Assembly: GCA_001949185.1 (NCBI GenBank)
Contig: BDGG01000003.1
Span: 907,577 to 971,576, forward strand
DNA: 64,000 nt
Direction: 5' to 3'
Origin: Ramazzottius varieornatus
Lineage: Eukaryota > Animalia > Tardigrada
Shown here: in pieces, positions 16,945 to 47,760 of the stretch
Numbering within the stretch: the stretch's first letter is position 1
How the letters are laid out: the number at the start of each line of letters is the position of its first letter
Notes under the pieces: model-generated
Told to the model about the DNA's origin: nothing
What the model saw: only the letters and a program-made list of their open reading frames with translations
Database searches by the model: none
Program-made: the position numbers and the translations under genes

Positions 16945-18075
16945 GCCGAAACTTGGTATAAAGTCCTGTCTATCGACAGCACATAAACGGATGTTCGTCA
17001 AGATCGTCTTGCGGAATTTCTCCACTTGAGTTTTACACGATACTTTTGCGGACAACTCAACCAGAGAGTTTCTCTTTTACGGAACTGTGTGAGGAAGTAG
17101 ACCGGGGACCAGTGTTGCAATGCTTCACGAGCGCGCCGTGGCATGTGATTGACACACGTGAAATTCAGCCCCGGTCCAGACATGCTACCCCAGCAAGCCC
17201 TGTCGGGAATTCAGCACATGCAGGACGATACCACGCGGCATGTCGATGCAGGATAGATTTGCATTCGCCCCCAAGAGGAAAAAAGCAAGTCTCCGAAATA
17301 CCACAGTTCACCCATCCTACTGTAGTCCAGTCATTTGTTGCCGAAGCTGTTGTATGGAATTCGGGATTATGTCACAAAAACCGGATTTCTAAAAAATCAG
17401 TATCTAATTATGGAACGCTTGTAGGTCATAACCCCGGCGCAAGAAGACCAATGAGTAGTAGCCCTTTATTCGTAGCTCTTGATGCATTGTGTTGGGTCTG
17501 GCGGGTTCAAACAATGCTTTCATGTTCTCGTGACTGTACCTTTGACAGGTGGGTAGAAGTTTGAAGAAGAACCGATGAATGGCCGGGCAAGCTCGATGAG
17601 CTGATGTATTGGCTAGTACTAAACTACATAGCTTTAGAACTGGATGAAGGCTATTGATGTTGTTTGCGTCAGACCGTATTTGATTTCAGGCTGTGCCTTG
17701 CTTGATCGGAAGTCCATACAAAGAACGTCGCGCACTTATGCGGTCAAATTACGGAAAGGTTCATATATCAATCGGAGCTCGTCCCGACAGATTATGGGCT
17801 GAGGGGGATTTGCTGTTGCAGCAAACCAGGAGGGGAACCATAAATTGTTTTCCACAAGCCAGGATCCGTCCCGGCTTTGAAGACTTTGCGGTCGTAACAT
17901 TAATTTGAAAAGCAAAGGAGGGAAACCCAGGATTTGATCAAGCTCGTTTTCTGAAACGTTTTTTAGGTCTGCGCGATCCGTTAGTTTTACCGTGGCGTCT
18001 AGAAAGCTTTATGTTCGTGATACTTTCGGTTTCGGCGGTTGAATTGGATAATGAACGAATCAGGCATCTTTTCCA

Positions 18076-19061
18076 TGGTTTTGAACGGGACTGTTCAAGA
18101 AGATATGACGGTAACCAATTCATCCACCATAAGTACAGTCTGCTGGCTACTTGCCATCGTTATGTTGATCGGCCTTTCGACACTGTGGTGTGCTCTACTT
18201 ACTAACGTGGAGCTTCGAACCCCGTTTCTGTGTTACGTACTGAACATCCTCGCCGGAGAGCTAGTTTTGTTTGTGTATGTCATTTTACTGGCTGTAGACG
18301 TCGGCCACGGAGCACAATCAGTTGGAAGAATCTTTTGTCCCTATGTCGATGTCCTTTTCGACTGGGGAACTTCCGTCATTGTTTACAGTGAACTGACCAT
18401 CAGTATCACTCGAGCATGGGCCTTGTTCTTTCCGATACACTTTCGCGGACACCACAGTAAGGTCGTGGCCAAACGTGTTTGCTGTGCCATATGGATGGGG
18501 ACTGCAGTTTTCTTGTTGCCTTATGGAGTTATCAGCCACGTCCACGTACGTCACCAGACAAAGTAAGTCATGATTAGAAACTGTGTGGGCTTGTCACCAC
18601 TATTACAGCTCAACTATACCAAAGCTATCGTGTTGGTTCTTGTCATACCTCCGATCGCCATTGTCTTGATGTATCCACCACTTTACAGAAAATATTCCAG
18701 CCTACACAAGGTACATACTGAGCTGAACGCCAGGTACCGTGTGCGCTCACTGTCAACCGACCCTAGTGTGCAGCTTTCGGGTACACAACGGTTGAGCCGC
18801 AATGAGCACGAAGGTTTCCTCATTCTGACCTGGATTGTCGTTTGTGTGGTTCTGTTCTGGACACCAGCTATAGTTTTCCAAATACTGCGGCAAATCCTAC
18901 GGATGCCTGCCGCACAAGCTCTAACGGAAGCACGATGGGTTTTGCTCTGGTCGTTGTTGCATGTATGCGTGGAGCCGTACATGTTCATATGGACCATTCG
19001 GCCTCTTCGAGAAAAATTTGGAAACTTGTTCCGGCGCTGTGGCTCCAGTGGTTGTCACTGA
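18076..19061 (+). pseudogene. Class A GPCR paralogue with a single in-frame TAA (pseudogene or unusual splice)
   Basis: ORFs 18039-18566 and 18570-19061 are in the same frame and collinear with the 11264 GPCR (YVLNIL, ISITRAWALFFP, CVGLSP, LTWIVVCVVLFWTP, EPYMF). The only lesion seen is TAA at 18564-18566. Confidence 0.75.
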
Positions 19062-21866: not shown

Positions 21867-24003
21867 CTACTTCAGAGCTAGCTTATATAAACTAGCACCG
21901 CCGCTGCCACCGCCGCTGCCCGCGCCGCTGCCCCCGCCACAACCGTTCTTGATGATATGACGGCAGAGCAAGATAATGTCGTCGTCCCCGCTATCTCCGT
22001 TCCCTCCACTTGTAAGAAGTCCGGCACCGCTTCCCTCCATCTCGTCGTCGTCTGGGAGGATATCGACAATAGCACGGATCGCTATCTTCAGCCCAGCCAA
22101 TTGCACGCATATGTCGGCACGGACAAGCGGATCGATGGTTACGCCTGCAGCGACCGAGACTGAACCCCCGGAGCAGCAAGTTCCATTGTCCATCGCCATG
22201 CACTTAAAGAGCGTCTTGGCGCATTTCTTGAAGAGATTTTTTTTTTCTTGGCATTTGCCGTCTCCGCCGTTGCTGCTGTTCCCCCCACCTCCGGCCCCAC
22301 CGTTGCCGCAGCCCGGTGCTTTGCAGGACCCACCGCTGTTTCCACCGTTGCCGCCACCGTTGCCGCCACCGTTGCCGCCATCGTTGCCGCCACCGTTGCC
22401 GCCACCGTTACCGCCACCGTTGCTCCAACCTCTACCTCTATAGCCCCCTGGTCTGCCGTCTCCTTTACCATCACGGCCATTTCCGTCATCGTCTCGGTCA
22501 CCACCATTGCCACGCCGTCCATCTGCGTTATCCCCTCCGGGACCATTCCTGCCACTGTTCCATCCGCGACCTCCATCTCGTTCATCATCTCTGTCACCAC
22601 CGCCACGACCATATCCACCGCCATCCCTGTCCCTGCGACCGTAGCGTCCATCGTTCCTGCCATTTCTGCCTTGGTCTCGATCGTCGTCTCGATCTCGGTT
22701 TCGGTCTCGGTCTCGGTCTCGGTCTTTGTCCGTATTTCGACGGCCTCCACCGTATCCTCCAACACGTTCTCGTCCCCCTCTTCGATCTTCATCTCTGTCT
22801 CGTTTACCGGCGTCGCTGTCGTCTCTTCGGCCAGGTCCGCTGTCTCGGTCACCGTTCATCCCGCTTTCTCGCTCTCCTCCTCTGCGATCCCATCCATCTT
22901 CGTCGCGGCGGCCTGGTTTGTCGTTCCACTCCTGTCCTCTATCGCCGGATGAGCTGTTACGGCGGGAACCTCCATGCCTGCCATCTTTGCGTTCGGATGG
23001 ACGGTTGTACATCGATGGATAGTACATCTGCGAATTCATTGGATCGTCAGCCTGGAGCCGCTTGCCTACGCCTATTACAAGAAACAAAGACATAAAAATT
23101 GGCACAAATAACGAAGAGTTCGCTCAAAGTTAAAAATAACTGCTGCCGTATAGCAGGCAGACATGCGACAACTCTAGATCAACACTTTCCCCACGATCGT
23201 TTCATGTTTGCAGAATACTACCGTCCTCTTTGTGTATACAGAAATTTCATTGGCTGGTACCGTGTTGCGGAGTCTGGTCCAACCGATAGGCAATTTTCGA
23301 AATTTCAAAATTTGGATAATTGGCAGGCCATGAACGCCAAATCTCAAAAGGGAGAACTGGTCGTCTTGATTTTCTTCTGACCGCACTGATGACTACAAAA
23401 TTTATCCCAGGCTCGGCTTCGATAGATAAGACTGTCCCCAGTGCTCCAGTTTTTTTCTAAGCGAATACCGTGCACGTGTCTCGCGCGAAGAGACGAAACA
23501 CCAAATTTTACCAAAACCACCCGAAACCGTGCTGGAGTCTTGCTGACCGCTGGTCATTAGTGTTGCTTTGGTGAGAAAACCGAGGTACATGCAAAAAAAA
23601 GACCCAGACCCGAAAGATCAAAAGCTAAAACTGGGAGGTGAATAAAACTGAGTGATTGTATACACAAAGAGGACGGTCGTATGCAGAGTGTTAAGTGAAG
23701 ATCGGAAATAAGCATTAGAGAAGTTTTGGATTGAGCTGATGTTTTCAGCAGAAGAAAATCCACCCAGGGAAACTTACCCGGAGGTCTCATGACGGGAGCG
23801 GACATGTTGTTCGGGTATCCCCACGCGGAGCTGTTGCCGTAATATCCAGCAGCGTCGCGCTTGGTTCGCGGTAGTAGGGCATCTTTGTCCGTACCCGTAT
23901 CCTCCTCCTCCTCGTCCCATGTTGTTTCCAGAGATTGTACCACAGAGAGGTACCCCAGGAACAGTCCCAGAAAGGAAAGGCCCGAGAGCCGGATGGTCCT
24001 CAT
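21867..24003 (-). CDS. Secreted Gly/Arg/Asp-rich low-complexity protein with Cys-rich C-terminal region
   Basis: Exon 24003-23778 has a signal peptide, an acidic run and RTKR, and ends in G|GTAAGT (phase 1). A small phase-1 exon is probable at about 23566-23512. The last exon 23071-21867 starts in phase 1 and carries RD repeats, (GGGN)n and a Cys cluster. Confidence 0.75.
22340..22421. repeat. Coding 12-bp tandem repeat (GCCGCCACCGTT)n encoding GGGN units
   Basis: About seven copies visible directly. Confidence 0.85.
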
Positions 24004-26602: not shown

Positions 26603-28796
26603 ATGAAGCTCTTCGCCGCTCTCGCTACTGCGCTTGCCGCGCTGGTTCTCCAAGGTATGCTCTTTGGTTGGACGATTGTACAGAGTTTCTTTCATTATCC
26701 CACCGCTCAAGTAGTTTACAGCTCCTTAGTAAGTTACCCGTGTTTTCCGTATTTTTAGATGGATCTTCCGCCTTGCAGTGCTATGAGTGTCAAAGCTGTA
26801 GCGCGGTGTCCGCCGATACCCTGACCGACTGCCCAGAGCCCGATGATCACTGTGCGGTTGTACTCTTCGAAGACAAAGGTAAGCCTGCTGTGTTTTTTGT
26901 TAGATTTTTAGGGGGAGGCGAACGGAAAATCAACTGCTAATGTTTGCAGGTGCAGTCAAGGTACACCGTGCATGTGCGAGCAATGTCGGCGAGTGGAAGA
27001 TGGGTAACGAAAACGACGTCATCAACAACTACAAGCTCTCCAACATTTCCGCTGCCTTCTATCAGTGCAACGGCGATGCCTGTAACGACGTCGAAGCCGC
27101 CGGAGTTAGCAATGGCCGCATCACCTTCACCATTGGTATGTCTGAGTCCCATTCTTCGTCATCCTCCTCCAAGTCCTCGTCTTCCAAGAGCGCGAAGTCT
27201 TCGAACAGCCAAAGCGGCGAGCAGAGCAAGAGCGAACAGGACGCTTCTCCTCAAGAAGGCAGTGAAGCTTCGTCAAAGTGGTCTTCCGCCCAGCTGCTCA
27301 ACAAGCTGTCCGCCAGCAAGTCGAAAGAAAGTAGTGGCACGATTTCCTCCCAGTCGAAAGGCCAGGAAACGAGCCTGAAGTCGAGGTCCTCCAAGACATC
27401 CCTCAGCGCTTCCAGCAAATCGCAGAAAGCATCCTCTGGCTCTTCTGGTTCTACCGACGAGGTTGATGCCGATGGAGACGATTCCGCAGACAATGACCGA
27501 GACCAAACGGCCCAACCACAGAGAAGCCACGGATCGAAAAAGTCGTCTTCCGCTCAGCTGCTGAGCCAAATGTTCTCCAGCAGGATCGAACAGCCAAACT
27601 CAGCTACCGGCTCGGCTTCGGCTGGATCAAAGTCTCAAGGCTCGAGTTCCAAGTCGACATCGTCTAAAGCGTCCTCCAGCCGTGGACTGCAGTCCGCCTC
27701 TTCCAGCTCGCTTGCTTCATCCGACGGCGCCACTGACGACAGTCATGACCAGCAACGAAGCCAAAGGAAGACAAAGGCAACTACCGCCCGGGCCAGCAAG
27801 CACGCAAAGTCTGTCTCGATCAACACTCAGGATTCCAGCTCGGAGTCTTCCAAGGCATCGTCCAGGAAGCCGGTGTTCGCTTCGTCTGACAGTGCCGAGC
27901 AAGACGACGTTCCCGCTAACACCAAGGAGCAAGAACGAGCGCTAGAGAATAGCCAAAGTGTCAAAAAGTCCTCCAGTTTGATCTATGGCAAAATATCGTC
28001 CAAAACCGGCTCGTCATCGTCCATGAAGAAATCATCTTCCATCTCGGTCTCCAACAAATCCATTACCCAGTCGTCCGCCGAAGGTTTGGACCAAGATCGG
28101 GAAGACAACGATGCCGAAGTGGAGACTGCCAAGAAAGCCCAAAGGACCAAAACTATCGACGCTACTTCTTCGCAAAAGAACTCCAAAGCTCAAGGTTCGC
28201 TGGCAGCCAAAGCCAAGTCTTCTTCCAGCAGGTTCTCATCTTTCGCCAGTAGCCAGGAAAGTTCTCACAGCTTGCTTAGTGCTGGTGCCAAGAAGGAGCA
28301 CGCCAAAGTCCAAAGCCACGGTGCCAAGTCCACCAAGTCCGAAGACCTGGACCAGAGCGAGGAGTTCGAAGATAACAGCGATGACAGTGAAGATGATGAG
28401 GACAGTACCGCCAAAAAGACCCATCAGAGCCAGCTGAAATCGGCCGAAAGCAAACAGGCCGCCGCCAAGGCTGCCTCTTCTTCGAAGAAATCCAAGTCTG
28501 CTTCCAGTTCTTCCTCTATCAAGTCATCCAGCATCAGTAACAAGCAAACGGATGACTCGCAGCAGGAAGATGGCAGCGATGCAACGGGATATGGTCCTCG
28601 ACCCACCAAGCCCACCACTAAGCCCACCACTAAGCCCACTACCAGGACTACCACCACCACCACGACTTCCACGACCACCACGACAAAGAAGCCCAAGCCT
28701 CCAGTTTATGGTGGTGAGGAGCTTTTGCCTGCTACTGAGCTTGAAGTCACTCTGCGTCCTCGTCGACGAGGTCGCACTGTTTTTGACAGAAAGTGA
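26603..28796 (+). CDS. Secreted Ly6/uPAR (three-finger) domain protein with long Ser/Lys/Gln-rich disordered tail and Thr-rich mucin-like end (about 672 aa)
   Basis: Exons 26603-26654, 26759-26878 and 26950-28796 with phase-1 introns. Signal peptide MKLFAALATALAALVLQ, then LQCYECQSC..C..HC..RAC..QCNGDACN. The extreme C-terminus could be spliced differently (GTGAGG near 28714). Confidence 0.8.
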
Positions 28797-31167
28797 ACTA
28801 TCCATCACTCACAATATGCTTATAGGTACCGCCACTTTGGCACTTGAACATTACAGAGTGGTTTCTTCATGCGTTTTTGTTAACACTTGCATCGGCCACA
28901 AAAGCTTTTCACTTGGTATCGCGTTGCCCGCAGTTCAGACGTGTGTTTTCCACAGCGATGAGCTCGCTAATGCAACCAGAGGTCGCTCACAGTCTGTTTA
29001 TGAGACCGAGGGGGAACTGACGGCTTGGCGCATCAGCCTTCCCCCTGTTCTTCTGAACTGCAACGACCCCGTTGGCGAACTTAAAGACCCGAAACCAAAT
29101 AGATCACTCAACGCTCTTGTAAACGTGGAGACTCGAAGAATGCTGATTCTTCCTGATGTAGCCGTTGTAGCAGTTGCTCTTCCAGTGATTGGCTTGCCGT
29201 ATTTCGCCGGGTGCGCGACCTCGATTGGGATTCTTCTGTGGCCGCGCGGATACGGAAACTGTGAGTCTTAAACCGGTGAGAATGGGTAATTCCGTGGAGA
29301 AGATTGATCAGATATGAAGCAACGATGTTGCGGAGCAGGAAAGAAGAACTCATCGTGTGTGGCCTGCAACTGCAGGCAACGTCAACTTGTATCGACAGGA
29401 CAGCCTGACTATCCGGTGACGGGTAGCTCAATGGAACTTCCGGCTTCTAACTGATCCGTCTTTGAGCTTACTACAAAAAACAACTTTTGTTGGTACGACG
29501 AATCCGGTGCTGTCTCTTCTGATTTTTCTGTTCAAACTTTGCTTGGGTTTTCACTGAGCTGCGACGTGAGAACTGGCATCAGTCCGCAAACGATTGTCAA
29601 TACCGGGACCATATAATGTTGGAGCCACTGGTACAACTACGACTCGTGCGCGACATTTCATCCTCTTTTTCCGACTCTTTTTCTGCCTTATGATCATGTG
29701 GGTAACAACCAGAACAGGCATTGTGGAAGTGAAGTTGACCGCTATACAAAATCGGGATTACCGGGTAGGACGTCGCGGTTCTCGGTACGTATACCGGTCG
29801 ATGTCAGTTGGTCGCCACGGTGTGACCTGGTATGCAGACGGCATCGTTCGTTAAGTGTACCCCCAAGCATGGCACGAACTCTTTGACTGCCGGCATCCAT
29901 GGTACTATAAAATGTTGACGATAGCTGTGCGGGAAGTACATGGCGCCTTTTTATACACCGTAGCTTCCGATGAAAATCGAGATCACATGCAAAATTCAGT
30001 TCAAGTTACTGGAGATCAATCGTTCGTAGCAGAGCTTAGACGGATAGGCAATGCCGGAAACAATCAACAGCATCTCAGGCAATAGTATGGATACGATATA
30101 GACATCTACTTGAAACATACCAGATGAAAAGTGACAGACCGATCAAGAAACCGAGACCTGAGATCGAGAAGACCGGGTGGTTGCCAGAACGTGCGCTATA
30201 TCAGGGTTGACCTCCGCGGAGCTGGAAAGTGGAACAAAGAAGTTCACTGCGGAAAGGTTAAACGCCAAAGGTTATGGGGCAGGTAAAACGTGAGTGGGGA
30301 AACAAAAAGTCTTATAAAACAGATATAAATAAAGTTTGCCGCGCTAGTCCTGAAACCCGCTCTCCAGTATTGGAGTCTAACTTGTTATTCAGATGCTGCT
30401 TTCGAGATCTCGGTTTTGTGGAACTGCAGGGACACAGGGAACAGTCGACTGTCAGCGGCAGGTCGGTTGCGCGTCTGGTACTGTTTAGAATTGGCGAAAT
30501 GGTTTTCAAAGGATGTGCTTGATGATCCCATGCACTTCATCGATTGCGTGAAAGGGTACGAAGCCACTATAAATAATCTGGTGAAAGAGTTTAGCCAGCA
30601 CGCGTTCGCAGTTTACTTCAAACGCGAGAAGGTGGATGAGGGCGGAGGGTCAACCGCGGCAAACACGACATCGTAACTTAAGTGCGCGAGAGATATTCTG
30701 GTTGGGGCTGAGGGTCAAAAATTTGGCCTGTCTCATAGTACTGTTGTGACGATATGGATTCGGCTGTGGTTCGCAACGCTTACGCGGAGTTTGCCATCGC
30801 CAGCCACAGAAAAGCAGCCGGGGTTGTCGTTAACGCGGCGTCGATACACTGCCGCGTGGCGATGGCTAAGTTCGAGTTCAGAACACCATCCGCAACGACC
30901 TGTTGTGCATGTACTTACGGCTTCGAAAACTTTCGTACTGCATTGCCAAACTGAATACCTTAGCTTGCACCGCTCGATATGTAGAAGTTTGGGAACAAAC
31001 GAATGGAATACTGTACTCAACGGAAAGTGGAGGACTTCTGTAAAACATCAGCAGAAAACCTCGTCGGTAACTTGCAACAGTACCACTGGGACTGTTAGAG
31101 GGCACTGCAGGGGTACAACCAGCTTATTTTCACTACGCGTAAACTGTAACCAGCTTCGACATATTAT

Positions 31168-32247
31168 CTAATCTTTTTTTGTCTTCAGAACTTCCAAGGT
31201 GATTTCCAGACGCGGATATTGCTCTTCGCAACATGGATAGGTTGCGGACTGGCGAGTTATGCTGGAGTTCTGGATAATAAAATTCTGGCCGTGGTAATCG
31301 GTATGATCTAAAAACGACATAAATTAGTCTCATCTCCATAGAGATCAGATAACCAAACGGAACACTCTCGGACTGTGTCCTATTACTGAAAACTACAGTA
31401 GATAAACGACCTTCTTACCAACAGTTGGGTGAGTTTCCTGCGGATAATCCAAGGCGTTTGCATCATACACCCAGGAGCCTGAAAAGCAGGAAAAAAACTT
31501 ACGTTTGATGAAACGAAAGCAGTCATGAGGCTAGAGGTATTGTAAGAAAGCCGACGAACAATATCTTCACGGTGACACGCCACAAAAACCTTACACGTAC
31601 CAATTAGGATTTTTGCCTGATACAGCGTCCCGTTGTTGGTTTTTGTTTCGTTATAGTAAGTGAATATGGTGACTTTCGGAACCCATAACAGGTCTCCATT
31701 AGAGTATACCACACCTATCGTGTGTTCTTCGGAAAACAATTTCTGTTGGGAGTCGGGACTGAAAGCATGCAAAACTGTGAACGTCTACATCTTGCTGAAT
31801 CGGAGATTAGACCACCTATGGTAAACCGTCAGATCAGGTGTCCATATTTCATCCATAGGGATCCGGACTTGAGATATTCCATCATAGGCAGCTGGCTCCC
31901 ACTGCAGACGCGAGTCATGCCATTTCATAGACAAGTATCCATCGAGCCGCATTACTTCCTCGTTGTCGTCCTGCAATAACAATATTCAAGTCTTCTTGGA
32001 AAAAAAGGTAGAGTAGTATTGATAGACACACAACTACCTGGATTCTGACGCCACTAATCATGACGTTTACGCTGACGTTTACGCTAGGACTTCCTGGATC
32101 GGCATTGGGTCGTACATTAATATCGGCTCCAGCAATGAGGCTAGAGACCAGGGAGGAAGTCAAAATGGATCTGCACTGGGTTCCGGATAAGTTACAAGTC
32201 ACAGTTATCATAAAAACGAATACTACAATCAGTGGTGTCTTCGCCAT
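31168..32247 (-). CDS. Soluble acetylcholine-binding-protein-like (nAChR alpha-type ligand-binding domain only, 240 aa)
   Basis: Exons 32247-32038, 31970-31816, 31758-31601, 31478-31419 and 31307-31168 total 723 nt in phase. Signal peptide, VRP, WHDSRLQW, IWTPDLTVY, GSWVYD, YPCCEEQY, then LEITLEVLKTKKD-stop with no transmembrane segment. Confidence 0.85.
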
Positions 32248-32367
32248 GATATCCTCGGATTATTCCGCAGGACTATATTAGCCAGAAAACAGTCTGTGGA
32301 CGACTTCGGTCGAACGGCCTCTTCGACAGAACAAAGCTTTTCTCACCACCCGAAAAGCTTCCTGCTG

Positions 32368-32421
32368 CGTTCTACCATGTACCAAAGTGGACTTCGTTCT
32401 ACCATGTACCAAAGTGGACTT
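32368..32421. repeat. Perfect 27-bp tandem duplication between the divergent AChBP-like and astacin-like genes
   Basis: CGTTCTACCATGTACCAAAGTGGACTT twice, followed by CTATAAA. Confidence 0.9.
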
Positions 32422-32754
32422 CTATAAAGCTTTTCTGTGGCTTTTAGCTGAGTTCTTTGTATCAGGTTGTAAGATCGGCTTCGCTGTTTATCACTTTTAG
32501 GTACGAAGTGGTTTCTTGGACTTTCAGTTCAAGACGGACCTTGCTACCAAAGTGTCTTTATCGGTGTCAAGGATCGCTAGACGGAAAGCTAGAGGCAGTC
32601 TCATTTTTCCAGCTGTCAATTGCTTTGGGCATCGCCATAGACTATCTGCTCAAAATCAAGCCGCTTTCCGGTTCAACCATCATTCTTTTCAGTACAGGTA
32701 CTCTCCCCGTTCTTCTGCAGTGTTGAAAAAATATCATCTGAATATTGTGAAAAT

Positions 32755-33824
32755 ATGACGAGGTTGCTGCTGAGCGTAGCAGTTTTTGGCTCATTGACTG
32801 CCCTCATCGGGGCGGCTGGATCCCGCGAGACGGATTTTATTCAACCTGGCGATGAGATAAGCGGTAATTGATATAGCTGATGAGTTTTTGTTTTGCCAGT
32901 TTTCTGCCACCTCATCCGGAATTTTGAATAGAACCATCGGAGCTCGACGATTACGATGACTTCACTGCACAAGGCGGAAGTTCGACCAAGCCGGACCCGA
33001 ATGCGCCACCGCGCCGGGTGATCAAGCTGTGGCCTGATGGTGTTGTGAAATATAAGCTGTCCCCCTCCCTTCTATCTGATAATCGTAAGATAGCCCCACT
33101 TCGGGTTTTGTTTCACAGTAGCATCAAATTCATTCTGAACTCTATTTTAGCAAGAGAAATCGCAAACTTGCGCGCCATCATGACCACCATCTCACAGAAG
33201 ACTTGCGTGCGATTCTCTCAGGCGTCGGCTGGAGAGCAAAGCTATGTTAGTGTAATTCCCGGACTCAAGTATGTACCTCGGGCTAAAGTATGTCAGAGGT
33301 TCCCCAAGACAAGTGACGGTTTTATTTCAGGTGCAAGTCCATGTTGGGAAAGCAGGAAGGAGTTAGCACGTTAATGTTGTCTGTCAAGAACTGCTTCAAC
33401 AACGGAACTTTGGCTCGAGGATTCATGCGTATTCTAGGTTTCACCTACGAAAGCAATAGAGCGGATCGCGATCAGTTCTTGACTTTTAACTGGGATAACG
33501 TGGCCGAAGGTGAGAACTGAAAATGCGAACATGGACCTACTCTTAGACTGTGCGTCGGCATGTTCTTTGCTAAATGGAACGTGCCTTCTCATCCTTCTAG
33601 CTAACAAGAAAAAGTTCACAAAGTTATCCGCGGACGATTATCCCGTCACCGATATGCCATACGATTTCTTGTCCTCCACTCACTTCCCGAAAAACGCTTG
33701 GGCCATCAATAAGAGCAGCTGGACAGTCCGTGCCAAACGCGATCCCGCGCAGCAGTTAGGCAACAACCGTGGGCTCAGCGACGGCGACCTCGCAAAAATC
33801 AAGAAGTTTTACAAGTGTCGTTAG
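32755..33824 (+). CDS. Secreted astacin-family (M12A) metalloprotease homologue, catalytically inactive (260 aa)
   Basis: Exons 32755-32863, 32932-33084, 33151-33268, 33331-33509 and 33601-33824 in phase. Motifs WPDGVVKY, TCVRF, CKSMLG, GF..E..RADRD, PYDFLS, LG..RGLSDGD..I..FYKC. The zinc motif is degenerate. Confidence 0.85.
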
Positions 33825-34450: not shown

Positions 34451-34648
34451 CTGTATTACCTCTAAGGTTTCGCGCAGTCACGTGACAAGCCAGTAAATAT
34501 TGCGTGGCGGGGATAAAAAACTTCACTGCCATCAATCAAAAATTTCCGACCAATCAAACGCAGCAATGTGCCACAATCAANNNNNNNNNNNNNNNNNNNN
34601 NNNNNNNNNNNNNNNNNNNNNNNNNNNNNNACCTTAGAGGTAATACAG
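34451..34648. mobile_element. MITE-like element whose inverted ends flank the assembly gap
   Basis: CTGTATTACCTCTAAGGT (34451) and ACCTTAGAGGTAATACAG (34631-34648) are exact reverse complements. Confidence 0.65.
34581..34630. other. Assembly gap (50 N)
   Basis: Run of n characters. Confidence 1.
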
Positions 34649-35272
34649 TAGCATTTTCCGCTCGGTTTTTCGCTTTAACTTTTTCGCTTAGTACCGTATT
34701 TCGCAACCTACGGGAATCAGGTTGAGCAGCCTGCGGAAAATGTTTTTCTGGCGGATTTTCACTTTGGCGCGTTTTCTATCTTCCTCTAATACAACCCCTT
34801 CTGTACTCACCCAGGATCTCTTGCATAGAATCTATCGAAGATATACTGACTCATCGAGGTATACAGTCGGCCACTTCCGACAGGTTATGGTCTATGACAT
34901 GACACCACACCATATGACATGACATGACCTGACCTGATATTCCGTTTCTGCCGCATCGGAGTATGAACGACAGGCAGTTTTACGGGAAGGTGCAGAGTCA
35001 AAACTTGGCGAAAAAGTTGTAACATCATGCCTGCGTCAGAAATTTGCGAACCGTTGGCAGCCGCATTACTTGATTGCAAACTTCTCGCCTCTGACTTCTG
35101 TCGCCGACGCGTAAGCACGAATGGGGCATAACACCTATTAGTAACGCATAGAGAGTTCATGGTCTTCTCTTTGGTTTCTTCGGCAGAGGAGCATCAGGGA
35201 CGCAGAAGCATGGTAAGCAGAGCCAATTTTTGATCATATTCTGTTATGATGTGATGGATTCCGTTCTAGGCG

Positions 35273-36397
35273 ATGAAAGGCAGTCTGCTTGACTTTCTAC
35301 AAGGATGGATGCTGATACCTTGGCGCATATTCATCGAAGTTTACACAAACCTTTATCGACCTTCAATTTCCAAGGATGAAGGAGAGCATGTCCCCGACAT
35401 GGATGCATCGGATACCACGGTCGACGAACGCGAGATGCGTCATTGGACCAAATTAGCCGAGACGTGGTGGGATCCCGAAGGCGAATTTGCCCTACTACGC
35501 GGCTTCAACACCACGCGTATTCCCTTCATCATCAAGACATACCAAAGACTTCTTCCAAAACAATCAGCTGACTTTTCTGACTTCGACTATCCCTTGAAGG
35601 GCCTGAAGGTGATCGACGTGGGTTGCGGAGCAGGATTAGTGTCCGAGCCTTTGGTCGAACTCGGTGCGGACGTTACCGCCGTGGACATGGTTCCGGAAAT
35701 CATACAGATTGCCAAAACCCACTGGACGCAGACCCACAAAGGCGCAAGAGGTCCAGAGTACCCCGAATATCTATGCGAGCCTGTGGAAGAATTAGCGAAA
35801 AGTCGTGAGGGGTACTACGACATGGCTCTCTGCCTCGAGGTGGGTTCCCTGATTCAGTTGCGCATATGTGTTCATCTAGCCTCACAATATGTGCGCGATC
35901 TGGGCTGGTGAGCGCTTCGCATCACCAAGTGGCGCACATACGCCATGAATACGTCACAATATGTGCGCCAGTTCAGATGCACATTTGCTGATCCGCGCAA
36001 TTATGGCGAATAGCGAACGAATGCAAACGTAGCATGATTCCTCTCCCCGTTGCAGGTGTTGGACCATGTAGGAAACTTACCGCCGTTTGTGGAGCACTGC
36101 TGTAAGTTTGTGCGAAAAGGTGGATGCGCCATCTTCTCCACGTTCAACAGGACGACAGCTGCTTTACTGCTGGGTATTATTGGCGCAGAACACCTGCTTC
36201 GGATAGTCCCTATGGACACCCATCACTTTCACAAGTTCGTCAAGCCTAGTGAGCTGACGGAGATGATCTCTTCTCATGGATTACGAACTGTTAGTGTTCA
36301 TGGCAGTTTTCCTTTGAACCCATTTGCACGAAGACCCAAGTGGGTCGACATCGGCTACACCGGCGTGACCTATGTCCTAGTAGCTACACGGGACTGA
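35273..36397 (+). CDS. COQ3: Ubiquinone biosynthesis O-methyltransferase
   Basis: TVDERE..LAETWWDPEGEFALL, SAM motif VIDVGCGAGLVSEPL, intron 35840-36055, EVLDHV, STFNRT, AEHLLRIVP..HHFHKFVKPSEL. The true start may lie in upstream exons. Confidence 0.9.
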
Positions 36398-39756: not shown

Positions 39757-40551
39757 TCAAGGAGCCATATCTGGTCGGACGTATAGGTTTGAAACGTCGC
39801 TTCTCCATCTACCTATGGCCCTAATCTGTTCCATGGAGCTTCCGGCTTTAGAAGCCCTCGAGACCGCTCCTATCCGGAAACTATGAGAGGCACAGCCATT
39901 CCCGAGAAAAATTTGTAGCTCGCGATTGGCACGTTGGCGAGTCAGGTAGCATCCATCATGGGAAATGAATAATGGTGTATGTCTTGCTGAAGATCTGACC
40001 AGCATATAAGCGTGAACGGCTCGTACGGGACAAGTATCCGTTTGAGTTTTTGTTATATAAATTGCAGGAGGTGTGGTTTTGCGATGGGTTTTGTCTCGCC
40101 GCAAACATATTTGGACCGAATCGCAGGATATTTGTAAGTCATTCAGGACAAGGTTTGATTTGTCAAAACTTGTCTCCTTCGAGCTAGTATACTCGAACAC
40201 ACGTAACATGCCGTAGAAGGCCATGGTGAAAGCCGTCCAAAGCATCAGTTGGTCGTGTCGAGGAATGAGAGATCCGAATAGGTCAGCTTTGAGCTGTCGT
40301 AAATGTTCTATTGTCAGAGGCTTTCTCTTGTATGTGTCGCGACGGGTTTGGTTGGTTAGACCTTTCAACATCATTGAGAGGTAATGGTCATTTCTACCAG
40401 GATGTTCGAAACCGTGCTCCAGTTGTTCTGAACGCACGCCGGCTACATAAACTGTCGCTGTTTTCCCGCTTAGCCCTTCGCTATCCAACCAGGAAACGAA
40501 CCGTCTGATGGTTTGGTGATCCGTAGGGAGATAACGGAGATGACGGCTCAA
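39757..40551 (-). CDS. Tyrosine recombinase of the DIRS/Ngaro element
   Basis: FYGMLRV.E, DKT, CPV.A, SHSFRIGA, IGRWRS and LYVR motifs. Confidence 0.85.
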   Translation of the reverse strand: MSRHLRYLPTDHQTIRRFVSWLDSEGLSGKTATVYVAGVRSEQLEHGFEHPGRNDHYLSMMLKGLTNQTRRDTYKRKPLTIEHLRQLKADLFGSLIPRHDQLMLWTAFTMAFYGMLRVFEYTSSKETSFDKSNLVLNDLQISCDSVQICLRRDKTHRKTTPPAIYITKTQTDTCPVRAVHAYMLVRSSARHTPLFISHDGCYLTRQRANRELQIFLGNGCASHSFRIGAVSRASKAGSSMEQIRAIGRWRSDVSNLYVRPDMAP

Positions 40552-40759
40552 ACAGGAAGAGCGAAATCACCCAAATCCATTTCGGTAGCCTCTTCTGGTA
40601 GAGGGAGTCAATCGCTTACCGACGAGCTCTCGCGATCTTGCATCGAGTTCGAACGGTTTCCGGGTTCTAGCCTGATCTCCCGCAAAAAATCTAGGATGTT
40701 TCTACCATTATGGGCTCGGTATTGGCCTTGGGATGATTTTCGAAGAACCGCGGGTTGTC

Positions 40760-42398
40760 GAATCTAGACCCAGCATCAGCCAATGTATTATCGACGCCGC
40801 TTATATGCGTTATTCCTAGCGTGAAATTGTTGTTTGCCGCTTCAACATAGGTGCGGCGTATCACCGTCATGATGGCGACATTCGATGACGTACATTTTGC
40901 CCAGATCTAGACCACCGACATATTGGCGGAATGAAATAAGATTCGCTTTGTCTGCCAGTCTGACCCCCAGACACAGCACGAGATTAAAGCTGGCAACAGT
41001 TCCAACAAAGCAATGGATGGTTTGGCTTCAAGTAGCCAGCTTGGCCATCGTAACTGAGACCGTTCTGCGCCGTAAACACCACCGCAACCGATGCTACCTG
41101 ATGCGTCAGTAAATAGATGCATACTTGGAGATGCATACTGCCCGAAGAAACTTGCACGAGCCATCCCACGTCGGAAGAAAATCTATCCACCACTGCCGAT
41201 CTGCTCTGAAGCCATCGTTCAGTTTCAGTTCAGGATGGTCGAGTTGTTTAACCTTATGTGCAAGATTGAGCATCCTTCGGAGGAAGATTCTGCCAGCCGG
41301 GATACATTTGGTTGCGAAGCCCAATTGTCCGCAAATGCTAAGAATTTCCCGTTTAGTAGCTTTCACTCTAGCTTTGTATACCGTGAACAAATCTTGAATT
41401 TCCTTAACTTTACTTTCCGGAATGCTGATAGTCTGAGTTTCAGTATCGAGTTGAATGCCAAGGAAGGTGAGTTTAGTCGTAGGGCCCTCGGTTTTTTCTT
41501 CTGCTATAGGCACACCAAGGTGTGCACATAATGCTCGTATAAAAGTCAACGTATAATGGCAAGCAGGTGACGAACTAGGTGCAGCCCACCAGAAATCATC
41601 GATGTAATGCAAAACGTCGAGCATTCCACCAGTAGTCTTAATTTTCCATTCGAGAATTTTGGAGAGATCATCGAACAAACTAGGTGAAGATCGACACCCA
41701 AACGGCAGTACCGTATCGAAATAATATTTTCCATCCCACATGTAAACAAGCAGACGCCAATCCTCTTTCGCGACTGGTATGAGTCTAAAGGCGCCCTTCA
41801 AATCCGTTTTTGCCATCAAACAGCCCTTTCCAAGTTTAAGACAAATATCAATGGCGTCGTCGACTGAACAGAAGTTAAGGGTATAATCTGTTTTCGAAAT
41901 GTAATCGTTGACTGACTGTCTGAAGGGTCAGGACAAGTCCATAATAAGGCGAACTCCGCCTAGTTTTTTGGGGCGTACACCCATGGAGGAACAAATGAAG
42001 TGGGGAAAAGGCGGATGGTCCAAAGGACCAACGGTGTGCTTTGCAGCAACCTCTTTGGCTACATAATCGCGTACGACCTCAGGGTGTTCTCGAGCAGTTC
42101 GAGCGTTAGGAGTAATTTGAGTAACATCAGGGCCAGTATAACCCAGGCGAAAACCATTGATAAGACCATTGACGAAATAATCAGCAAATTCGGAGTCAGG
42201 ATAATCCTTCAGGGCATGAGCAAACCGTTCTGGTATCAACGGGGTATATGCTTTATCAGGAATTTCAACAGAAGTAAAATGATGAGTGGTAACAGGAACG
42301 GGTGCTAGCGAAGTAGATGGAACACTAAGCGTAGCGATGGGTGAGCTTGGTATGCCCGGTTTTGAGGCATTGCGAACAGGGCATAGTTCTGATAACAT
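40760..42398 (-). pseudogene. Disrupted RT/RNase H ORF of the DIRS/Ngaro element
   Basis: In-frame stop at 41928 after RLIMDLS, a frameshift near 41160, and a further stop at 40907. Confidence 0.85.
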
Positions 42399-44031
42399 GG
42401 TTCAGCGCAGCCACCGGGTTCGGTAAAACGACTGCAAGCCAGGACCACAGCTTTAGGTCGATTACCATCAGAGTTAGAATTATAGCCATCAGATGTCATA
42501 TTAGAAAATCTATTAGAAGATCTATTCACACCTTCTTTCTTGCTGGGGCATGTTGTTGCCATATGGCCCTTCTCGCTGCATATATGGCAGGTAGCGGTGC
42601 GAATCCACTCAGAGTATGAACCTCGAGCAACGGTGCTGATAACTGTGGTGGTAGTAGCGGTTGGCTTGAAATTATTTTTAACGGCCTTAACGATATCACG
42701 GTCCTCGTGGTACCACCCGGTTACATCACAATCTTTTGACGGAAACGTTGGTCATATTCCAACCAAAAGCGCACGTCAGGCTTTCGTGAAGCCAACCCCC
42801 GGATGATGCCACTATAGGCAAGGAAAGGTATAGCCATATCGGGGTAATAGTAGCTCCGATAGAGAGAGAAAGTCAAAAACGCATCTTGCCAGGAGGGCAA
42901 GTCAACGATCACCAAGTGTCCTGTACTAGGGTCACCGGGTTGTTTGCGCTTGGTGTTATCAGGCACATATCTATCAGTAACCAGATCCTGGAAAACCACG
43001 TAGGCTGCTTTTTGTCGAAGCAACTTTTCAACAGTAGGAGTGACTGGGGGGAAGTTGAAATGAGTAGAAGGAGGTGGCTTTTTTCAAACGACACTGTAGA
43101 CAACTGGGGTAGGTGAGGAAGGTATTTGATTGCCGTACTGCGGTAGAGGCGAAGAAGCCCGGGAGACTGAGTACGTTGGGGGGAGCGTACCTGACGATGG
43201 AGTGACTCGTTTGTAGCTTCCAGCCGCTTGACATGACGAAGGATGGCGGCAATCTCTTCTGGTGTCGGGTAAGTGGCGTTGGTAGGCAACCACGATCCCT
43301 TCCATTTCGGCCTGCCTGTTCGCCTTGTAATCGTCCACCGGAAGAATGTCCCATGTGACCCATCAAGACGTCGTGTCCACCAGGTCCAACTTGGCCACCA
43401 ACATACGCGCTCCCTTCGTATTCCGTTCTTCTTTCCTGTCTTCCTGATCTATCCGACACGCGAAGTAATTCCGGACCAGTTCCCTGTCTTTCCAGTCTTC
43501 CAGATCCACTTTCCAGTCTTCTGGTTCATTCTCCAAGCGGCTTGGGCTTCCCTGTCGGTCTTCTCGTCCGGGTGCTGCGAACAGCTCCAAGGCCCGATCC
43601 ACACTGACCGCGCGACGAACGTCTTTCAACGCCGAGCGAAGGCGTTTGGCGAGAGGCACCTCTGGTAACGCGGTAAGAACTTGACTATCATCAGGCCCAG
43701 CTGGATTTTTGGTACCGTAACGGTGTCGTCCACTAGGGCTATCACTGGCTACCGGAGGCATAGCCCCGTGTGGGCTCTGAGGTCGCGAGTTTGCCATCGA
43801 GAAGACTTAAAAAAGCTGAGAAAAAAAAATGTGCTCACTTCGTGAAACAGTGACTGACTCCAGCTGTAAATTTAGACTGTAAGCTACTCAGAATCCACAT
43901 GGCAGCCTAATCAAATGACTATTCTGTAATGAGGGAAATGCCGAAATGGCGTCAACGGCAGTGTAACACCTTTCGCCGTTAACTCTCTTAACTGCATAGT
44001 AAAATAACACTGGCCGGCAAGCACAACACAG

Positions 44032-46705
44032 CAGAGCGTAAAACCGTTCGATAAACCGGAAACCAAATCCACATTTTCCAAAAAACGAAAACGAAAACGA
44101 ACACGAGCAGAAAGCAATCGCGAGTTTTTTAACGGAACTGAACGGAAGATTTCGATGTTCGGAACCGAAACTAAAATACACCGTTCGCACAGAAATTAAC
44201 AGTTTATGATCGTCAAAGATTCACGCTTTAACATCCTTCGGTAAACTATTTTTCGCCGATGTCTTCGGCTTTCCACTATCTTAAACTAAATTCCACTTCA
44301 AGTACAGCGAATCATCTAACTTCTCGCTGCCTAGGGAAGTTGTCTTCTCGGTGGATCCATTTCCAGCATCACTGAACAGTCTTTCGGGGGAACAGCTAGA
44401 GGGGGGAACCGCGAGAACCCGCACAGCCAGCTTGGAAAGCTTCGGAAGAGTAGCTGCATGCTTTTGCCAGAATTCCAGGATCGGTTTGGAGCTTACAGGT
44501 GGCGGCAGGCTTTGATGGAGACTTATCTCGTCAGCGTGATTGACCGCACTGCCAGTGTCGGAGTAACGGCAGAACTGGCTAAACTCGGTGAACAACGAAG
44601 CTGTATCTGTGGTCGCTGCTATTGGCTGTGCAGTTAAGCTGGTTGTTCCGCACATTTTCTGCACGCCATTGATAATCTCACTTTTTTCAGCGATGGGGTA
44701 CATCAGGAGACCTTTCATGGCTGGATTGAGGAACACTGCTGCTTTGTGTAGTTCGTCAACGACCAGTTTAGCGTCACAGACTTAAGCTGTTTCTGCAAAT
44801 ACGGAAGTTCGTCAGTGACTGAGAAACATGTCATATGGTGTCAAAGAAGTTTAATCTTACCTGATATGCCACAAGAGCGCTGTACTGGGGTAAGTCCCGG
44901 AACTCTTCAGAAATTGGCTGACTGACGTACGCCTGGACTTCGATGAAGTAAGGTACGACCAGGTGTATCGTCGGAATGTTCGATGACTCTAGAGCCAACG
45001 TGGCAGTCTTGAAGGGTCACAGCAGCTCAGCCACAGCACGGAGAAAGTCGACAGGTCCCGGAAGTCGGTTTCGTTCGTCTCTTTCTTGCAAGATGTGTTC
45101 GAGTTCTGGGTAGAGCCGGATAATGGAATCCAGCATGCCCAGGTTGGAGTTCCACCGCGTTTCGATCGCCCGACAGACGGCGGCTAAGATAGTCTTGCTT
45201 GCAGTACGTTACCAGCGACTTACAGGACTGAATCAAGGTTGAAATTGAAACTCCTTCATCACTCAGTTTGAATCTGCGAATTTGGCTTCCGGTTAACTGA
45301 GTTTTGTAAGCACGTGTTGTGCATTTGACAAGCACAGCTGACACGTTTAAGAATGGTTCTATTTGGAACTCTGGAGGCAGCAATCATAGTAGCAGCAGCA
45401 TCTGTTATGAACGTAACGTCCGCGCATTCCTCTTCTGAGATGCAAATGTGTGCCAATGCATGATGAACCCGACGAACTTGGTCTTTGTGTAATCTTCCGT
45501 CCATCCATCCAGGCTGATACAGACACCTCTGGTTGTAAGGATCTTTGTCAGCTTTGGAACACTTATCTTCCGTAGAGCTTTAGCTTGGTTGGTCACGCTG
45601 GTGCTAACGGTGGCAGCAGATGTAAGAAGTTCGCGAGCAGGAAAACGAGCTCCTTTATGCTTTCTTGCTATCCCCAACACCGTGTCAATCATCAGCTCGA
45701 ATCCTTCTCCTTCGCACACTTGGAATGCTGGAGAATCCAAAGCACAGAATCTTTGAACAATAGCACACATCAAAAGCCGTCAAACAATAACGTAAGATCA
45801 AATTAGCAAGTTCAATATTACTTTGCAAGAGCTTCCGACATGAGTTATTTTTCTTCTGTCGTTACTCCGACCTTCAGATACTGCTGTATCGAACCTGCGG
45901 CTTTCTCCTCACACTTGGCTGAATGGTGTAATAGTGAGGTTGTTCCAGTCTTAATGCTGAAAGTGTACACTTGACTGCAGTTCTTACAGGCAACGAAGTC
46001 CAGCACCTCGTCCGTATCCACTGTGACTACTCGTAAGAAATCTTCCCACACGGCACTTCTTCCACTCGCATTCTCTTTAGTCGCCAAAAGACTCATCTTT
46101 GATGCCGCGTTGTACCTCGGCTACCGTAAGTCCTCTTAGCTGCAGTGAGGGTGACGCCTTAACTTTCTTCGCAGCTCGCTTTGAATCGCTAGCTCGCTTC
46201 TTCAAGGCTTCGCCGGTCAGATCTATCAGTTCCACTTCACCTTCATCGCCCGAACTCTGTCCCGACCTACAAAACCACTATTATCTTACCGTACTCTAAC
46301 CGAATATGAGCTGCACTTACATAATCCAGCCTGCCAGCGACGTGGTAGATTAAGAGACCAGCGGACTAAATCCAGAACCAAACTAATACAAGAATTAACC
46401 GCAAGTTAGTAAGTCGATTCAGAATACATAGGAGTCTGCGATACAACCCAGCGACTTGCTCAATGAGTTGCGCGATGGTCAGAAATCGTATTTAACTATA
46501 GCTTACGTGCTCTGCTATAGGGCTGTGTTACGTAATTGTTTCGGTTTCTAAGCCAGTCCGATCAGAACGGAACGGGCGGAACGTCATTCTGTCAGAAACC
46601 GAACGGAAAAAAGCGGAAATAATTTCGGGTATTCCAGAACGGAAGCGGACCGAAACTTCGTTAACTGCAGTTCAGTTCCGCTTAACGGACCATTTTTAAG
46701 CTCTG
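44032..46705 (-). mobile_element. hAT DNA transposon, full length but decayed
   Basis: TIRs CAGAGC(G/T)TAAAA, 8-bp target duplication CAACACAG/CAGCACAG (7 of 8), and subterminal AACGG/AACGA repeats. Transposase fragments include a BED finger (VW..F..CKNC..GTTSLLHH), SLDGWT, TRWNS and the dimerisation motif FW..LPKLSKLA..PPSS..ERLFS. Confidence 0.9.
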
Positions 46706-47562: not shown

Positions 47563-47760
47563 TACGTCACGTTCTGAACAGCCAGTCAAAAAGTCATTCA
47601 TAAAAGTCATAAAACCGGGTATACTATTCGGTAACATGCAGTACGGCCGTACGACGCACGAGTAGCTACCTCAATTTGAAATTATTCGTTTTTCGTTTCG
47701 TTCTTCTCCATTTTGTACAGAGTCGTCGACACAACATCAGTCAACGACGTCATCATCAAG

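What the first reader, a model, noticed from the sequence alone, without database searches (positions are those of the whole stretch)
31168..32247. Soluble AChBP-like protein: nicotinic ligand-binding domain with no ion channel and no Cys-loop disulfide
Seen in sequence: five in-phase exons give a 240-aa secreted protein that stops just after the last beta strand (LEITLEVLKTKKD-stop), with no M1-M4 helices. The agonist aromatic box is retained: loop A WTPDLTVY, loop B GSWVYD, loop C YPCCEEQY with vicinal cysteines, and Tyr in place of Trp at loop D. The signature Cys-loop reads TYYNETKTNNGTLYQA, so both cysteines are gone and two N-glycosylation sequons are present. The ORF track misses the last two exons. 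Established: AChBPs are best known from molluscs and an annelid, and Lymnaea AChBP keeps the Cys-loop disulfide. Inference: this may be an independently derived secreted acetylcholine buffer or a decoy for nicotinic toxins.
Basis: partly seen in the sequence, partly recalled or inferred. Interest (0 to 1): 0.88.

Follow-up and report, generated by a model that had tools for sequence, protein, structure and literature searches.

The report
Tardigrade secreted acetylcholine-receptor binding domain
This is a real, spliced and transcribed tardigrade gene for the ligand-binding half of a nicotinic acetylcholine receptor with no ion channel and without the family's signature disulfide; it is likely secreted and likely soaks up acetylcholine-like molecules, as snail and spider acetylcholine-binding proteins do.

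Summary
Observation confirmed. Five minus-strand exons give a 240-aa protein identical to Ramazzottius varieornatus RvY_06743. Contigs from 7 of 7 RNA-like runs (7 studies) show all four introns and run unspliced through the stop, so the main transcript has no channel exons. The aromatic box (Y82, Y120, W177, Y218, C220-C221, Y225) is complete. Both Cys-loop cysteines are replaced (Y157, A170), and AlphaFold2 predicts a zipped beta-hairpin there. The gene is not a one-off. It sits in a 13-row clade of channel-less proteins whose 7 named rows are all tardigrade; a 7-row subclade lost the disulfide. Channel-less domains are common in the databases (83 of 154 hits), the disulfide was lost repeatedly, and spider AChBPs are already published. 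Independent origin is unresolved: AU tests do not reject kinship with spider or snail forms. Best reading: a likely secreted, likely pentameric binder of cholinergic ligands (0.6); binding and role are untested. I found no paper on tardigrade AChBPs in the held library. The scan noted a similar channel-less gene on other DNA (e1-7469266). Verdict: new variant of a known kind, moderate interest.

The parts
32248..32395 (-). 5' UTR; transcript start near 32395
   Evidence: Contigs of X5 and X12 end at 32395 with a loose end that I recognise from memory as a template-switch adaptor. An in-frame stop lies just upstream of the ATG.
32038..32247 (-). Exon 1 (aa 1-70): predicted signal peptide (about aa 1-25, holding C18 and C25), helix alpha1, beta1
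   Evidence: The signal peptide rests on hydropathy and alignment to relatives; no dedicated predictor was run.
31816..31970 (-). Exon 2 (aa 71-122): loop D Y82 (31937-31935) and loop A W113-Y120 (31844-31821)
   Evidence: This exon alone gives Pfam Neur_chan_LBD at E 5.6e-14. Joints. Residue mapping.
31601..31758 (-). Exon 3 (aa 122-175): loop E (V138, L146, V148) and the former Cys-loop
31614..31655 (-). Former Cys-loop, Y157-A170: no cysteines, no F/YPxD motif, sequons N158 and N164; predicted beta-hairpin with a two-residue turn
   Evidence: Sequence, alignments, AlphaFold2 strands 150-162 and 165-176 at block pLDDT 96-97.
31419..31478 (-). Exon 4 (aa 175-195): loop B with W177 (31473-31471)
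31168..31307 (-). Exon 5 coding part (aa 195-240 + TAG): loop C Y218, C220, C221, Y225 (31239-31216), beta10, stop
30884..31167 (-). 3' UTR, continuous with exon 5; end about 30884-30917 in five of seven RNA-like runs
   Evidence: No poly(A) loose end and no canonical AATAAA was seen, so the exact end is a weak hint.
32396..32617 (.). About 220 bp between the 5' ends of this gene and the divergent astacin-like gene; possible shared promoter (inferred)
   Evidence: Adaptor-marked contig ends at 32395 and 32618.

Best explanation
The gene makes a spliced mRNA for a nicotinic-type ligand-binding domain with no channel, and the protein is likely secreted, likely forms a five-subunit ring, and likely binds acetylcholine-like cations between subunits without passing current. 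Shown: the gene structure, the transcript ending after beta10, the complete aromatic box, the missing disulfide, and membership of a clade whose named rows are all tardigrade. Predicted: the signal peptide; the AChBP/nAChR fold; a zipped beta6-beta7 hairpin in which Y157 faces A170 where the disulfide would be. Inferred from AChBP and nAChR knowledge: ligand is held by W177 (cation-pi), Y120, Y218 and Y225 under the C220-C221 loop C cap, with Y82, V138, L146 and V148 from the neighbouring subunit. The Cys-loop couples binding to the pore in channels, so once the pore was lost the disulfide and the Pro-loop motif could drift. The likely role is an extracellular sink that buffers acetylcholine and would also catch dietary nicotinic toxins; these two roles cannot be told apart here.
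For: Seven RNA-like runs from seven studies splice exactly as modelled and read through the stop. Pfam LBD only. Model pLDDT 91.3, pTM 0.83; VIA-align Z 24.8 (rmsd 2.0, 211 aligned) to alpha4 and Z 23.8 (rmsd 2.0, 205 aligned) to Capitella AChBP. All principal and complementary positions map onto AChBP/alpha-subunit residues. The full box and CC are kept in P0002 at 69% identity. The 13-row clade has 99/97 support and the 7-row Cys-less subclade 100/99. The disulfide-keeping relative P0007 is modelled with a 10-residue open loop, against a 2-residue turn here. Soluble LBD-only proteins are described as homopentameric ligand binders in molluscs and an annelid, and reported in spiders (PMC3423370, PMC4569296, passages).
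Against: No binding, secretion or oligomer data exist for this protein. The Lys before loop B and the Asp after loop C tyrosine, seen in alpha2 and alpha4, are L173 and R227 here; from memory this pair couples binding to gating and may add to affinity. Close paralogs have lost box residues: RvY_06797 and Hypsibius BV898_13562 have no vicinal CC and Trp at loop A, so the family is drifting away from the acetylcholine site. All 4 listed coding differences in run X2 are missense, though conservative and outside the box; that table was cut, so no ratio can be given. Even for snail AChBPs the physiological role is disputed (PMC3423370, PMC4569296). P0007 is an imperfect control because its loop is longer, and both models are predictions.
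Confidence: 0.6

Rival explanations
1. The fold and pocket have been repurposed. The protein binds some other small molecule (an algal, cyanobacterial or plant alkaloid, or another amine) and acetylcholine only weakly or not at all.
For: Fast divergence: 20-26% identity to solved receptors and AChBPs in structural alignments. Paralogs have altered boxes. Paramacrobiotus has several paralogs on records of one contig length. Snail AChBPs bind algal toxins at picomolar affinity (PMC3423370, passage).
Against: This member and P0002 keep every canonical box residue and the vicinal cysteines, which is what an acetylcholine site looks like.
Confidence: 0.17
2. It works as one subunit of a mixed complex: a soluble heteropentamer with non-alpha-like paralogs such as RvY_06797, or a modulator that co-assembles with or docks on membrane nicotinic receptors.
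For: The same genome encodes RvY_06797, a paralog with no cysteine at all and no vicinal CC, in the same subclade. This mirrors the alpha / non-alpha split of channels.
Against: P0001 carries both faces of the site, as homomeric AChBPs do. Its nearest relative is P0002, not the paralog. No co-expression data were seen.
Confidence: 0.1
3. [quoted passage not shown]
For: Four sequons in the predicted mature chain (N57, N158, N164, N208), two on the face freed by loss of the membrane domain. ACCBP is an AChBP variant thought to bind CaCO3 through glycans (PMC3423370, passage). That tardigrade stylets contain calcium carbonate is recalled, not from a call.
Against: No tie to ACCBP was shown (no ACCBP row was identified in the trees). 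The intact box points to a small cationic ligand. No expression site is known.
Confidence: 0.08
4. It is a truncated receptor: a decaying gene, or one whose functional isoform splices on to a membrane anchor or channel exons.
For: A 24-residue M1-like stretch lies on the same strand at about 30342-30271 (11.5 bits, E 0.031; 1 of 30 shuffled windows as high). Contigs drop rare isoforms. The listed X2 coding differences are all missense.
Against: No joint or loose end near the stop in 7 RNA-like runs. No hit better than E 0.39 elsewhere in six frames of the window, while the same profile found 17 of 25 control M1 fragments at E under 0.01. No good in-phase donor before the stop (read). The stop after beta10 is shared by P0002 and by relatives in three tardigrade genera.
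Confidence: 0.05

Closest known systems
Acetylcholine-binding proteins (AChBP) of Lymnaea, Aplysia, Bulinus, Biomphalaria and Capitella teleta
   Same: Signal peptide plus PF02931 domain only, ending after beta10; full aromatic box with vicinal cysteines; Tyr at loop D as in the Aplysia-based chimera 4ZJS; 12 residues between the two Cys-loop positions; Z 23.8 to Capitella AChBP.
   Different: Only 20-25% identical in structural alignments. The Cys-loop disulfide, called strictly conserved in PMC3423370, is absent. Different phylum. Common ancestry neither shown nor rejected. Pentamer and binding untested.
Spider AChBPs (Cupiennius salei CsAChBP; Pardosa pseudoannulata AChBP5 = P0061)
   Same: Channel-less nicotinic domain with vicinal cysteines in a panarthropod.
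   Different: 26% identity to P0061; the spider forms keep both Cys-loop cysteines; separate clade in the free tree, although joining them is not rejected (p-AU 0.307).
Nicotinic acetylcholine receptor alpha subunits (alpha2, alpha4, alpha7, alpha9; Alvinella receptor 8BX5)
   Same: Same fold (Z 24.8, rmsd 2.0 to alpha4) and the alpha-type loop C.
   Different: No M1-M4, no Cys-loop disulfide, no F/YPxD motif, and the Lys/Asp pair flanking loops B and C is replaced.
'Cys-less' pentameric channels (Jaiteh et al. 2016, PMC4795631; schistosome clade, PMC9874803)
   Same: No cysteines at the Cys-loop positions.
   Different: Those are full channels that keep the loop proline / FPxD motif. This protein has neither the membrane domain nor the proline, and it nests among disulfide-keeping relatives, so its loss is separate and secondary.
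[quoted passage not shown]
   Same: Secreted, glycosylated AChBP-type domain (PMC3423370, passage).
   Different: No sequence tie tested; mineral binding untested.

Membership tests
AChBP (soluble nicotinic ligand-binding proteins) | Nicotinic-type ligand-binding domain (PF02931) over the whole mature chain | tested here: met
   97.2 bits, residues 32-233; Z 23-25 to nAChR and AChBP structures.
AChBP (soluble nicotinic ligand-binding proteins) | No transmembrane domain; mRNA stops after beta10 | tested here: met
   7 of 7 RNA-like runs read through the stop without a joint; no PF02932.
AChBP (soluble nicotinic ligand-binding proteins) | Cleaved signal peptide and secretion | tested here: inconclusive
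   N-terminal hydrophobic stretch, 19-residue mean up to 1.84, aligned with similar leaders in relatives; no predictor or experiment.
AChBP (soluble nicotinic ligand-binding proteins) | Aromatic box of loops A-D and vicinal loop C cysteines | tested here: met
   Y82, Y120, W177, Y218, C220, C221, Y225.
AChBP (soluble nicotinic ligand-binding proteins) | Cys-loop disulfide | tested here: not met
   Y157 and A170 at the two positions; described as strictly conserved in PMC3423370. Filed as AChBP-like, not as a canonical AChBP.
AChBP (soluble nicotinic ligand-binding proteins) | Homopentameric ring | not testable with these tools
AChBP (soluble nicotinic ligand-binding proteins) | Binds acetylcholine and nicotinic ligands | not testable with these tools
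   Needs an assay.
AChBP (soluble nicotinic ligand-binding proteins) | Common descent with mollusc, annelid or spider AChBPs | tested here: inconclusive
   Deep branches unresolved; p-AU 0.307 and 0.497; the Lymnaea, Aplysia and Capitella sequences themselves were not in the trees.
nAChR alpha subunit (Cys-loop channel) | Four transmembrane helices M1-M4 | tested here: not met
nAChR alpha subunit (Cys-loop channel) | Vicinal cysteines in loop C | tested here: met
   C220-C221.
Cys-less / Pro-loop pentameric channels | Loop proline (F/YPxD) kept and membrane domain present | tested here: not met
   No proline between Y157 and A170 and no membrane domain; feature from the PMC4795631 abstract and PMC9874803.

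The most novel reading that the evidence does not exclude
Tardigrades have their own, separately derived family of channel-less nicotinic domains. It has split into alpha-like members (this gene), non-alpha-like members with a rebuilt pocket (RvY_06797, Hypsibius BV898_13562) and members with a short hydrophobic tail that may be a lipid-anchor signal (Paramacrobiotus). One branch replaced the Cys-loop disulfide with a glycosylated beta-hairpin. Together they would form a soluble or surface ligand-scavenging system with mixed pentamers and new specificities, and this member would be a natural AChBP that folds and binds agonists without the superfamily's namesake bond.
Probability: 0.25. Interest if true: 0.7.

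Novelty: new variant of a known kind. Interest (0 to 1): 0.46.

Why it matters
If it binds nicotinic ligands, it extends AChBP-type proteins to a further phylum and shows that the Cys-loop disulfide is dispensable once the pore is gone. That makes the old question of what the Cys-loop does apart from gating directly testable, because disulfide-keeping and disulfide-free relatives exist in one small clade. The biological role of AChBPs is still disputed, and tardigrades offer a small animal in which knock-down or knock-out could test it (tractability recalled, not from a call). The effect is moderate: soluble domains of this kind are already known from molluscs, an annelid and spiders, and are plentiful in sequence databases.

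Tried and rejected
Whole genome: none is held for this window, so the full set of Ramazzottius paralogs and channels could not be counted. Complex prediction of two copies (residues 26-240): no answer, score 0.00 in two runs, alignment not used, controls not folded; the tool states this is no evidence either way. Run search: no holder is on record as RNA; the RNA nature of seven runs rests on their exact intron joints. Word-index search with the whole protein found only P0001 and P0002 among 112 candidates; the deeper searches were needed. Metagenome scan: 80 loci kept of 93 confirmed; the 16 best, which are all I translated, are stop-terminated proteins of 201-277 aa whose best BLAST matches lie outside the tardigrade clade. 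ESM Atlas gave only PF02931 clusters (arthropod, nematode, mollusc) and nothing tardigrade-specific. PDB look-ups of four unnamed or little-known soluble hits found no close copy of a solved AChBP; P0120 (Nucella) was nearest to Aplysia AChBP at about E 1e-31 and served as a weak proxy. The careful mixture-model tree did not finish for 129 rows (the quick tree was used) and was killed for 62 rows; LG+G4 was used, with an unsettled bootstrap (0.940). Literature: 0 papers for acetylcholine-binding protein + tardigrade, AChBP + tardigrad, the locus tags and accession, and AChBP + Cys-less + metazoan; Ramazzottius + nicotinic acetylcholine gave 3 papers, none on this by title and abstract start; a broad evolution query was uninformative. 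Rejected: stop read-through into a membrane helix (the frame closes again after 39 codons); a missed frameshift or mis-spliced model (RNA and GenBank agree); membership of the ancient Cys-less channel clade; a paralog inside the window (tblastn hits only this locus).

Full report
What is there. The finding lies on the minus strand. Five exons (32247-32038, 31970-31816, 31758-31601, 31478-31419, 31307-31168) join in phase to 723 nt, 240 codons and a TAG; the introns are 67, 57, 122 and 111 nt and all GT-AG. A search with exon 3 alone returned a 240-aa protein identical to this model, annotated as hypothetical protein RvY_06743 of the tardigrade Ramazzottius varieornatus (GAU95065.1), and one unnamed 211-aa relative, P0002. 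The gene is therefore already called correctly in public data, but not named or discussed.

Is the truncation real? The run search listed 22 runs, none on record as RNA. I laid 8 of the 22. The 7 RNA-like runs, from 7 studies, each show all four joints at the modelled places; the eighth, X15, crosses introns 1 and 2 unspliced. In all 7 the fifth exon continues through the stop with no joint and no loose end. Main contigs end at 30884, 30895, 30903, 30911, 30917, 30953 and 30654; X15 continues to 30400. No poly(A) tail was captured, so the exact 3' end is only a weak hint, and contigs can drop rare isoforms. A profile that I built from the M1-M3 parts of 38 membrane-bound hits found 17 of 25 held-out M1 fragments at E under 0.01. 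In six frames of the window its best hit was a 24-residue stretch at about 30342-30271 on the gene's strand (11.5 bits, E 0.031), matching the end of M1; 1 of 30 shuffled windows scored as high. Its position is suggestive. Against it: Pfam does not recognise it, nothing M2- or M3-like follows, I see no good in-phase donor before the stop, and no contig joins to it. I treat it as probably chance and leave it open.

Anatomy. Pfam gives Neur_chan_LBD over residues 32-233 and no membrane domain. The only strongly hydrophobic stretch is the N-terminus; by alignment with relatives, cleavage near residue 25 would leave C220 and C221 as the only cysteines (inference). Alignments to PDB sequences (best: Alvinella receptor 8BX5, human alpha2 domain, the Aplysia-based chimera 4ZJS, alpha4; Capitella AChBP at 1.3e-18) place Y120, W177, Y218, C220-C221 and Y225 on the principal face and Y82, S84, R106, V138, L146 and V148 on the complementary face. 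Tyr at loop D matches the chimera. The Lys four residues before the loop B Trp and the Asp two after the last loop C Tyr are L173 and R227 here; I recall this pair as part of gating. The two Cys-loop positions are Y157 and A170, with 12 residues between, two sequons and no proline. AlphaFold2 with 79 soluble relatives gave pLDDT 91.3 and pTM 0.83, with strands 150-162 and 165-176, that is a hairpin in which Y157 would face A170 (the register is my inference from the strand limits). The disulfide-keeping relative P0007, folded with the same sequence set, has strands 145-155 and 166-175 around a 10-residue open loop; its loop is longer, so the control is imperfect. Fold searches rank nAChR alpha domains and AChBPs together: Z 24.8, rmsd 2.0, 211 aligned for alpha4; Z 23.8, rmsd 2.0, 205 aligned for Capitella AChBP; Z 22.9, rmsd 2.4, 203 aligned for Lymnaea AChBP.

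Family. The exhaustive search found 3977 proteins at E up to 0.001 and listed 150. Of 154 proteins then held, 83 are domain-only by my hydropathy rule, 66 have membrane helices and 5 are unclear; some of the 83 may be cut gene models and three are near-copies. I looked up names for 20. Among the top hits are Hypsibius exemplaris BV898_13562, Paramacrobiotus metropolitanus XP_055352207 and a second Ramazzottius protein, RvY_06797, which has no cysteine. A profile of ten of these returned nine further Paramacrobiotus records of 198-280 aa, all with the same longest-contig length and some being isoforms. A quick tree of 129 rows and a careful LG+G4 tree of 62 rows that I chose from 136 (bootstrap not settled) both recover the clade. 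In the careful tree it has 13 rows at 99/97; 7 are named and all 7 are tardigrade, 6 are unnamed environmental proteins. Inside it a 7-row subclade at 100/99 lacks both Cys-loop cysteines, while the other 6 keep them, so the loss most simply happened once, after the channel was lost (this depends on the root lying outside the clade). Within the subclade the vicinal cysteines are kept in 4 of 7 rows, and two rows have Trp at loop A. Across 136 of the 182 proteins held (short, low-scoring, unclear and near-duplicate rows dropped), both cysteines are missing in 12 of 78 soluble rows and 2 of 55 membrane rows; the 62-row tree needs at least 6 changes of that state. The rows were selected by likeness to a cysteine-free query and are not independent, so this is a pattern and not a rate.

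Origin. No membrane-bound sister of the clade was resolved. Forcing it together with the spider-like group that holds Pardosa AChBP5 costs 14.2 log units (p-AU 0.307); forcing it with the Nucella protein P0120 costs 0.07 (p-AU 0.497). Neither is rejected and neither is shown.

Results against my reading. No function was measured. Sister paralogs have lost pocket residues. All four listed coding differences in run X2 are missense (K86R, S53N, I43V, F12L), though conservative and outside the pocket; 31 rows of that table were not shown. The M1-like stretch is unexplained.

What is in print. PMC4569296 (passages) reports a channel-less AChBP in the spider Cupiennius, with a 16-residue Cys-loop, and notes that AChBP trees have low support and roles are unclear. 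PMC10934791 (passages) cites Pardosa AChBPs. PMC3423370 (passages) calls both disulfides strictly conserved and lists the proposed roles: synaptic or non-synaptic buffering, algal toxin binding, calcium carbonate binding. PMC4795631 (abstract and outline, plus a word search with no hit for AChBP or tardigrades) and PMC9874803 (first of three parts) describe Cys-less channels that keep the loop proline. PMC11410187 mentions nicotinic receptors only in a reference. Searches for a tardigrade AChBP, for the locus tags and for a Cys-less AChBP returned nothing. The library lacks most subscription journals, and I did not open supplements, where tardigrade expression tables may list this gene.

Verdict. 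The feature is real and the description accurate. It works most likely like an AChBP (0.6) but fails one defining AChBP feature, so I file it as AChBP-like: a new variant of a known kind. The new elements are the phylum, the small tardigrade family, and a complete agonist box on a domain with no Cys-loop bond.

Noticed in passing
window 32755-33824 (+): Five-exon, 260-aa secreted-looking astacin-family gene, spliced in RNA-like contigs, in which the zinc-binding HExxH motif is replaced (both His and the Glu absent), so it is likely a dead protease. It lies head to head with the AChBP-like gene, 5' ends about 220 bp apart.
   Followed up: partly
window about 30342-30271 (-): 24-residue stretch resembling the end of nicotinic M1, 830 bp behind the stop; borderline score, no RNA joint.
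   Followed up: yes
P0173-P0177 and P0180 (Paramacrobiotus metropolitanus): These paralogs end in a short hydrophobic tail after small residues, like a GPI-anchor signal; they may be surface-tethered binding domains. No predictor was run.
   Followed up: no
P0019 (RvY_06797) and P0008/P0154 (Hypsibius BV898_13562): Sister pair with no Cys-loop bond, no vicinal cysteines and Trp at loop A; RvY_06797 has no cysteine at all.
   Followed up: partly
P0091, P0144 (unnamed membrane-bound hits): Proteins with membrane helices, a full aromatic box and vicinal cysteines but no Cys-loop cysteines.
   Followed up: no
L001-L016: All 16 best environmental contigs encode stop-terminated nicotinic domains of 201-277 aa with 3' UTRs; four have one or no cysteine in the scored loop window, and L007 and L010 end in a hydrophobic tail.
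   Followed up: partly
window 39757-43800 (-): Retroelement with a reverse transcriptase (Pfam RVT_1) followed by an ORF that looks to me like a tyrosine recombinase (no Pfam hit), suggesting a DIRS-type element; hAT transposase remains at 44281-46120.
   Followed up: partly
window 4700-8900, 11120-12277, 18021-19061, 35270-36397, 47680-50309, 58006-60490, 61472-61906: Ordinary neighbours: P-type ATPase, two rhodopsin-type GPCRs, a methyltransferase, ESF1, a protein O-mannosyltransferase and a WAP-domain protein (extents).
   Followed up: partly
window 21867-23123 (-) and 26904-28796 (+): Long low-complexity ORFs, one Gly/Arg/Asp-rich and one Ser/Lys-rich; the second has no Pfam hit and is covered by RNA-like contigs.
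   Followed up: no
window 34582-34631: A run of 50 N (assembly gap) about 750 bp behind the astacin-like stop codon.
   Followed up: no
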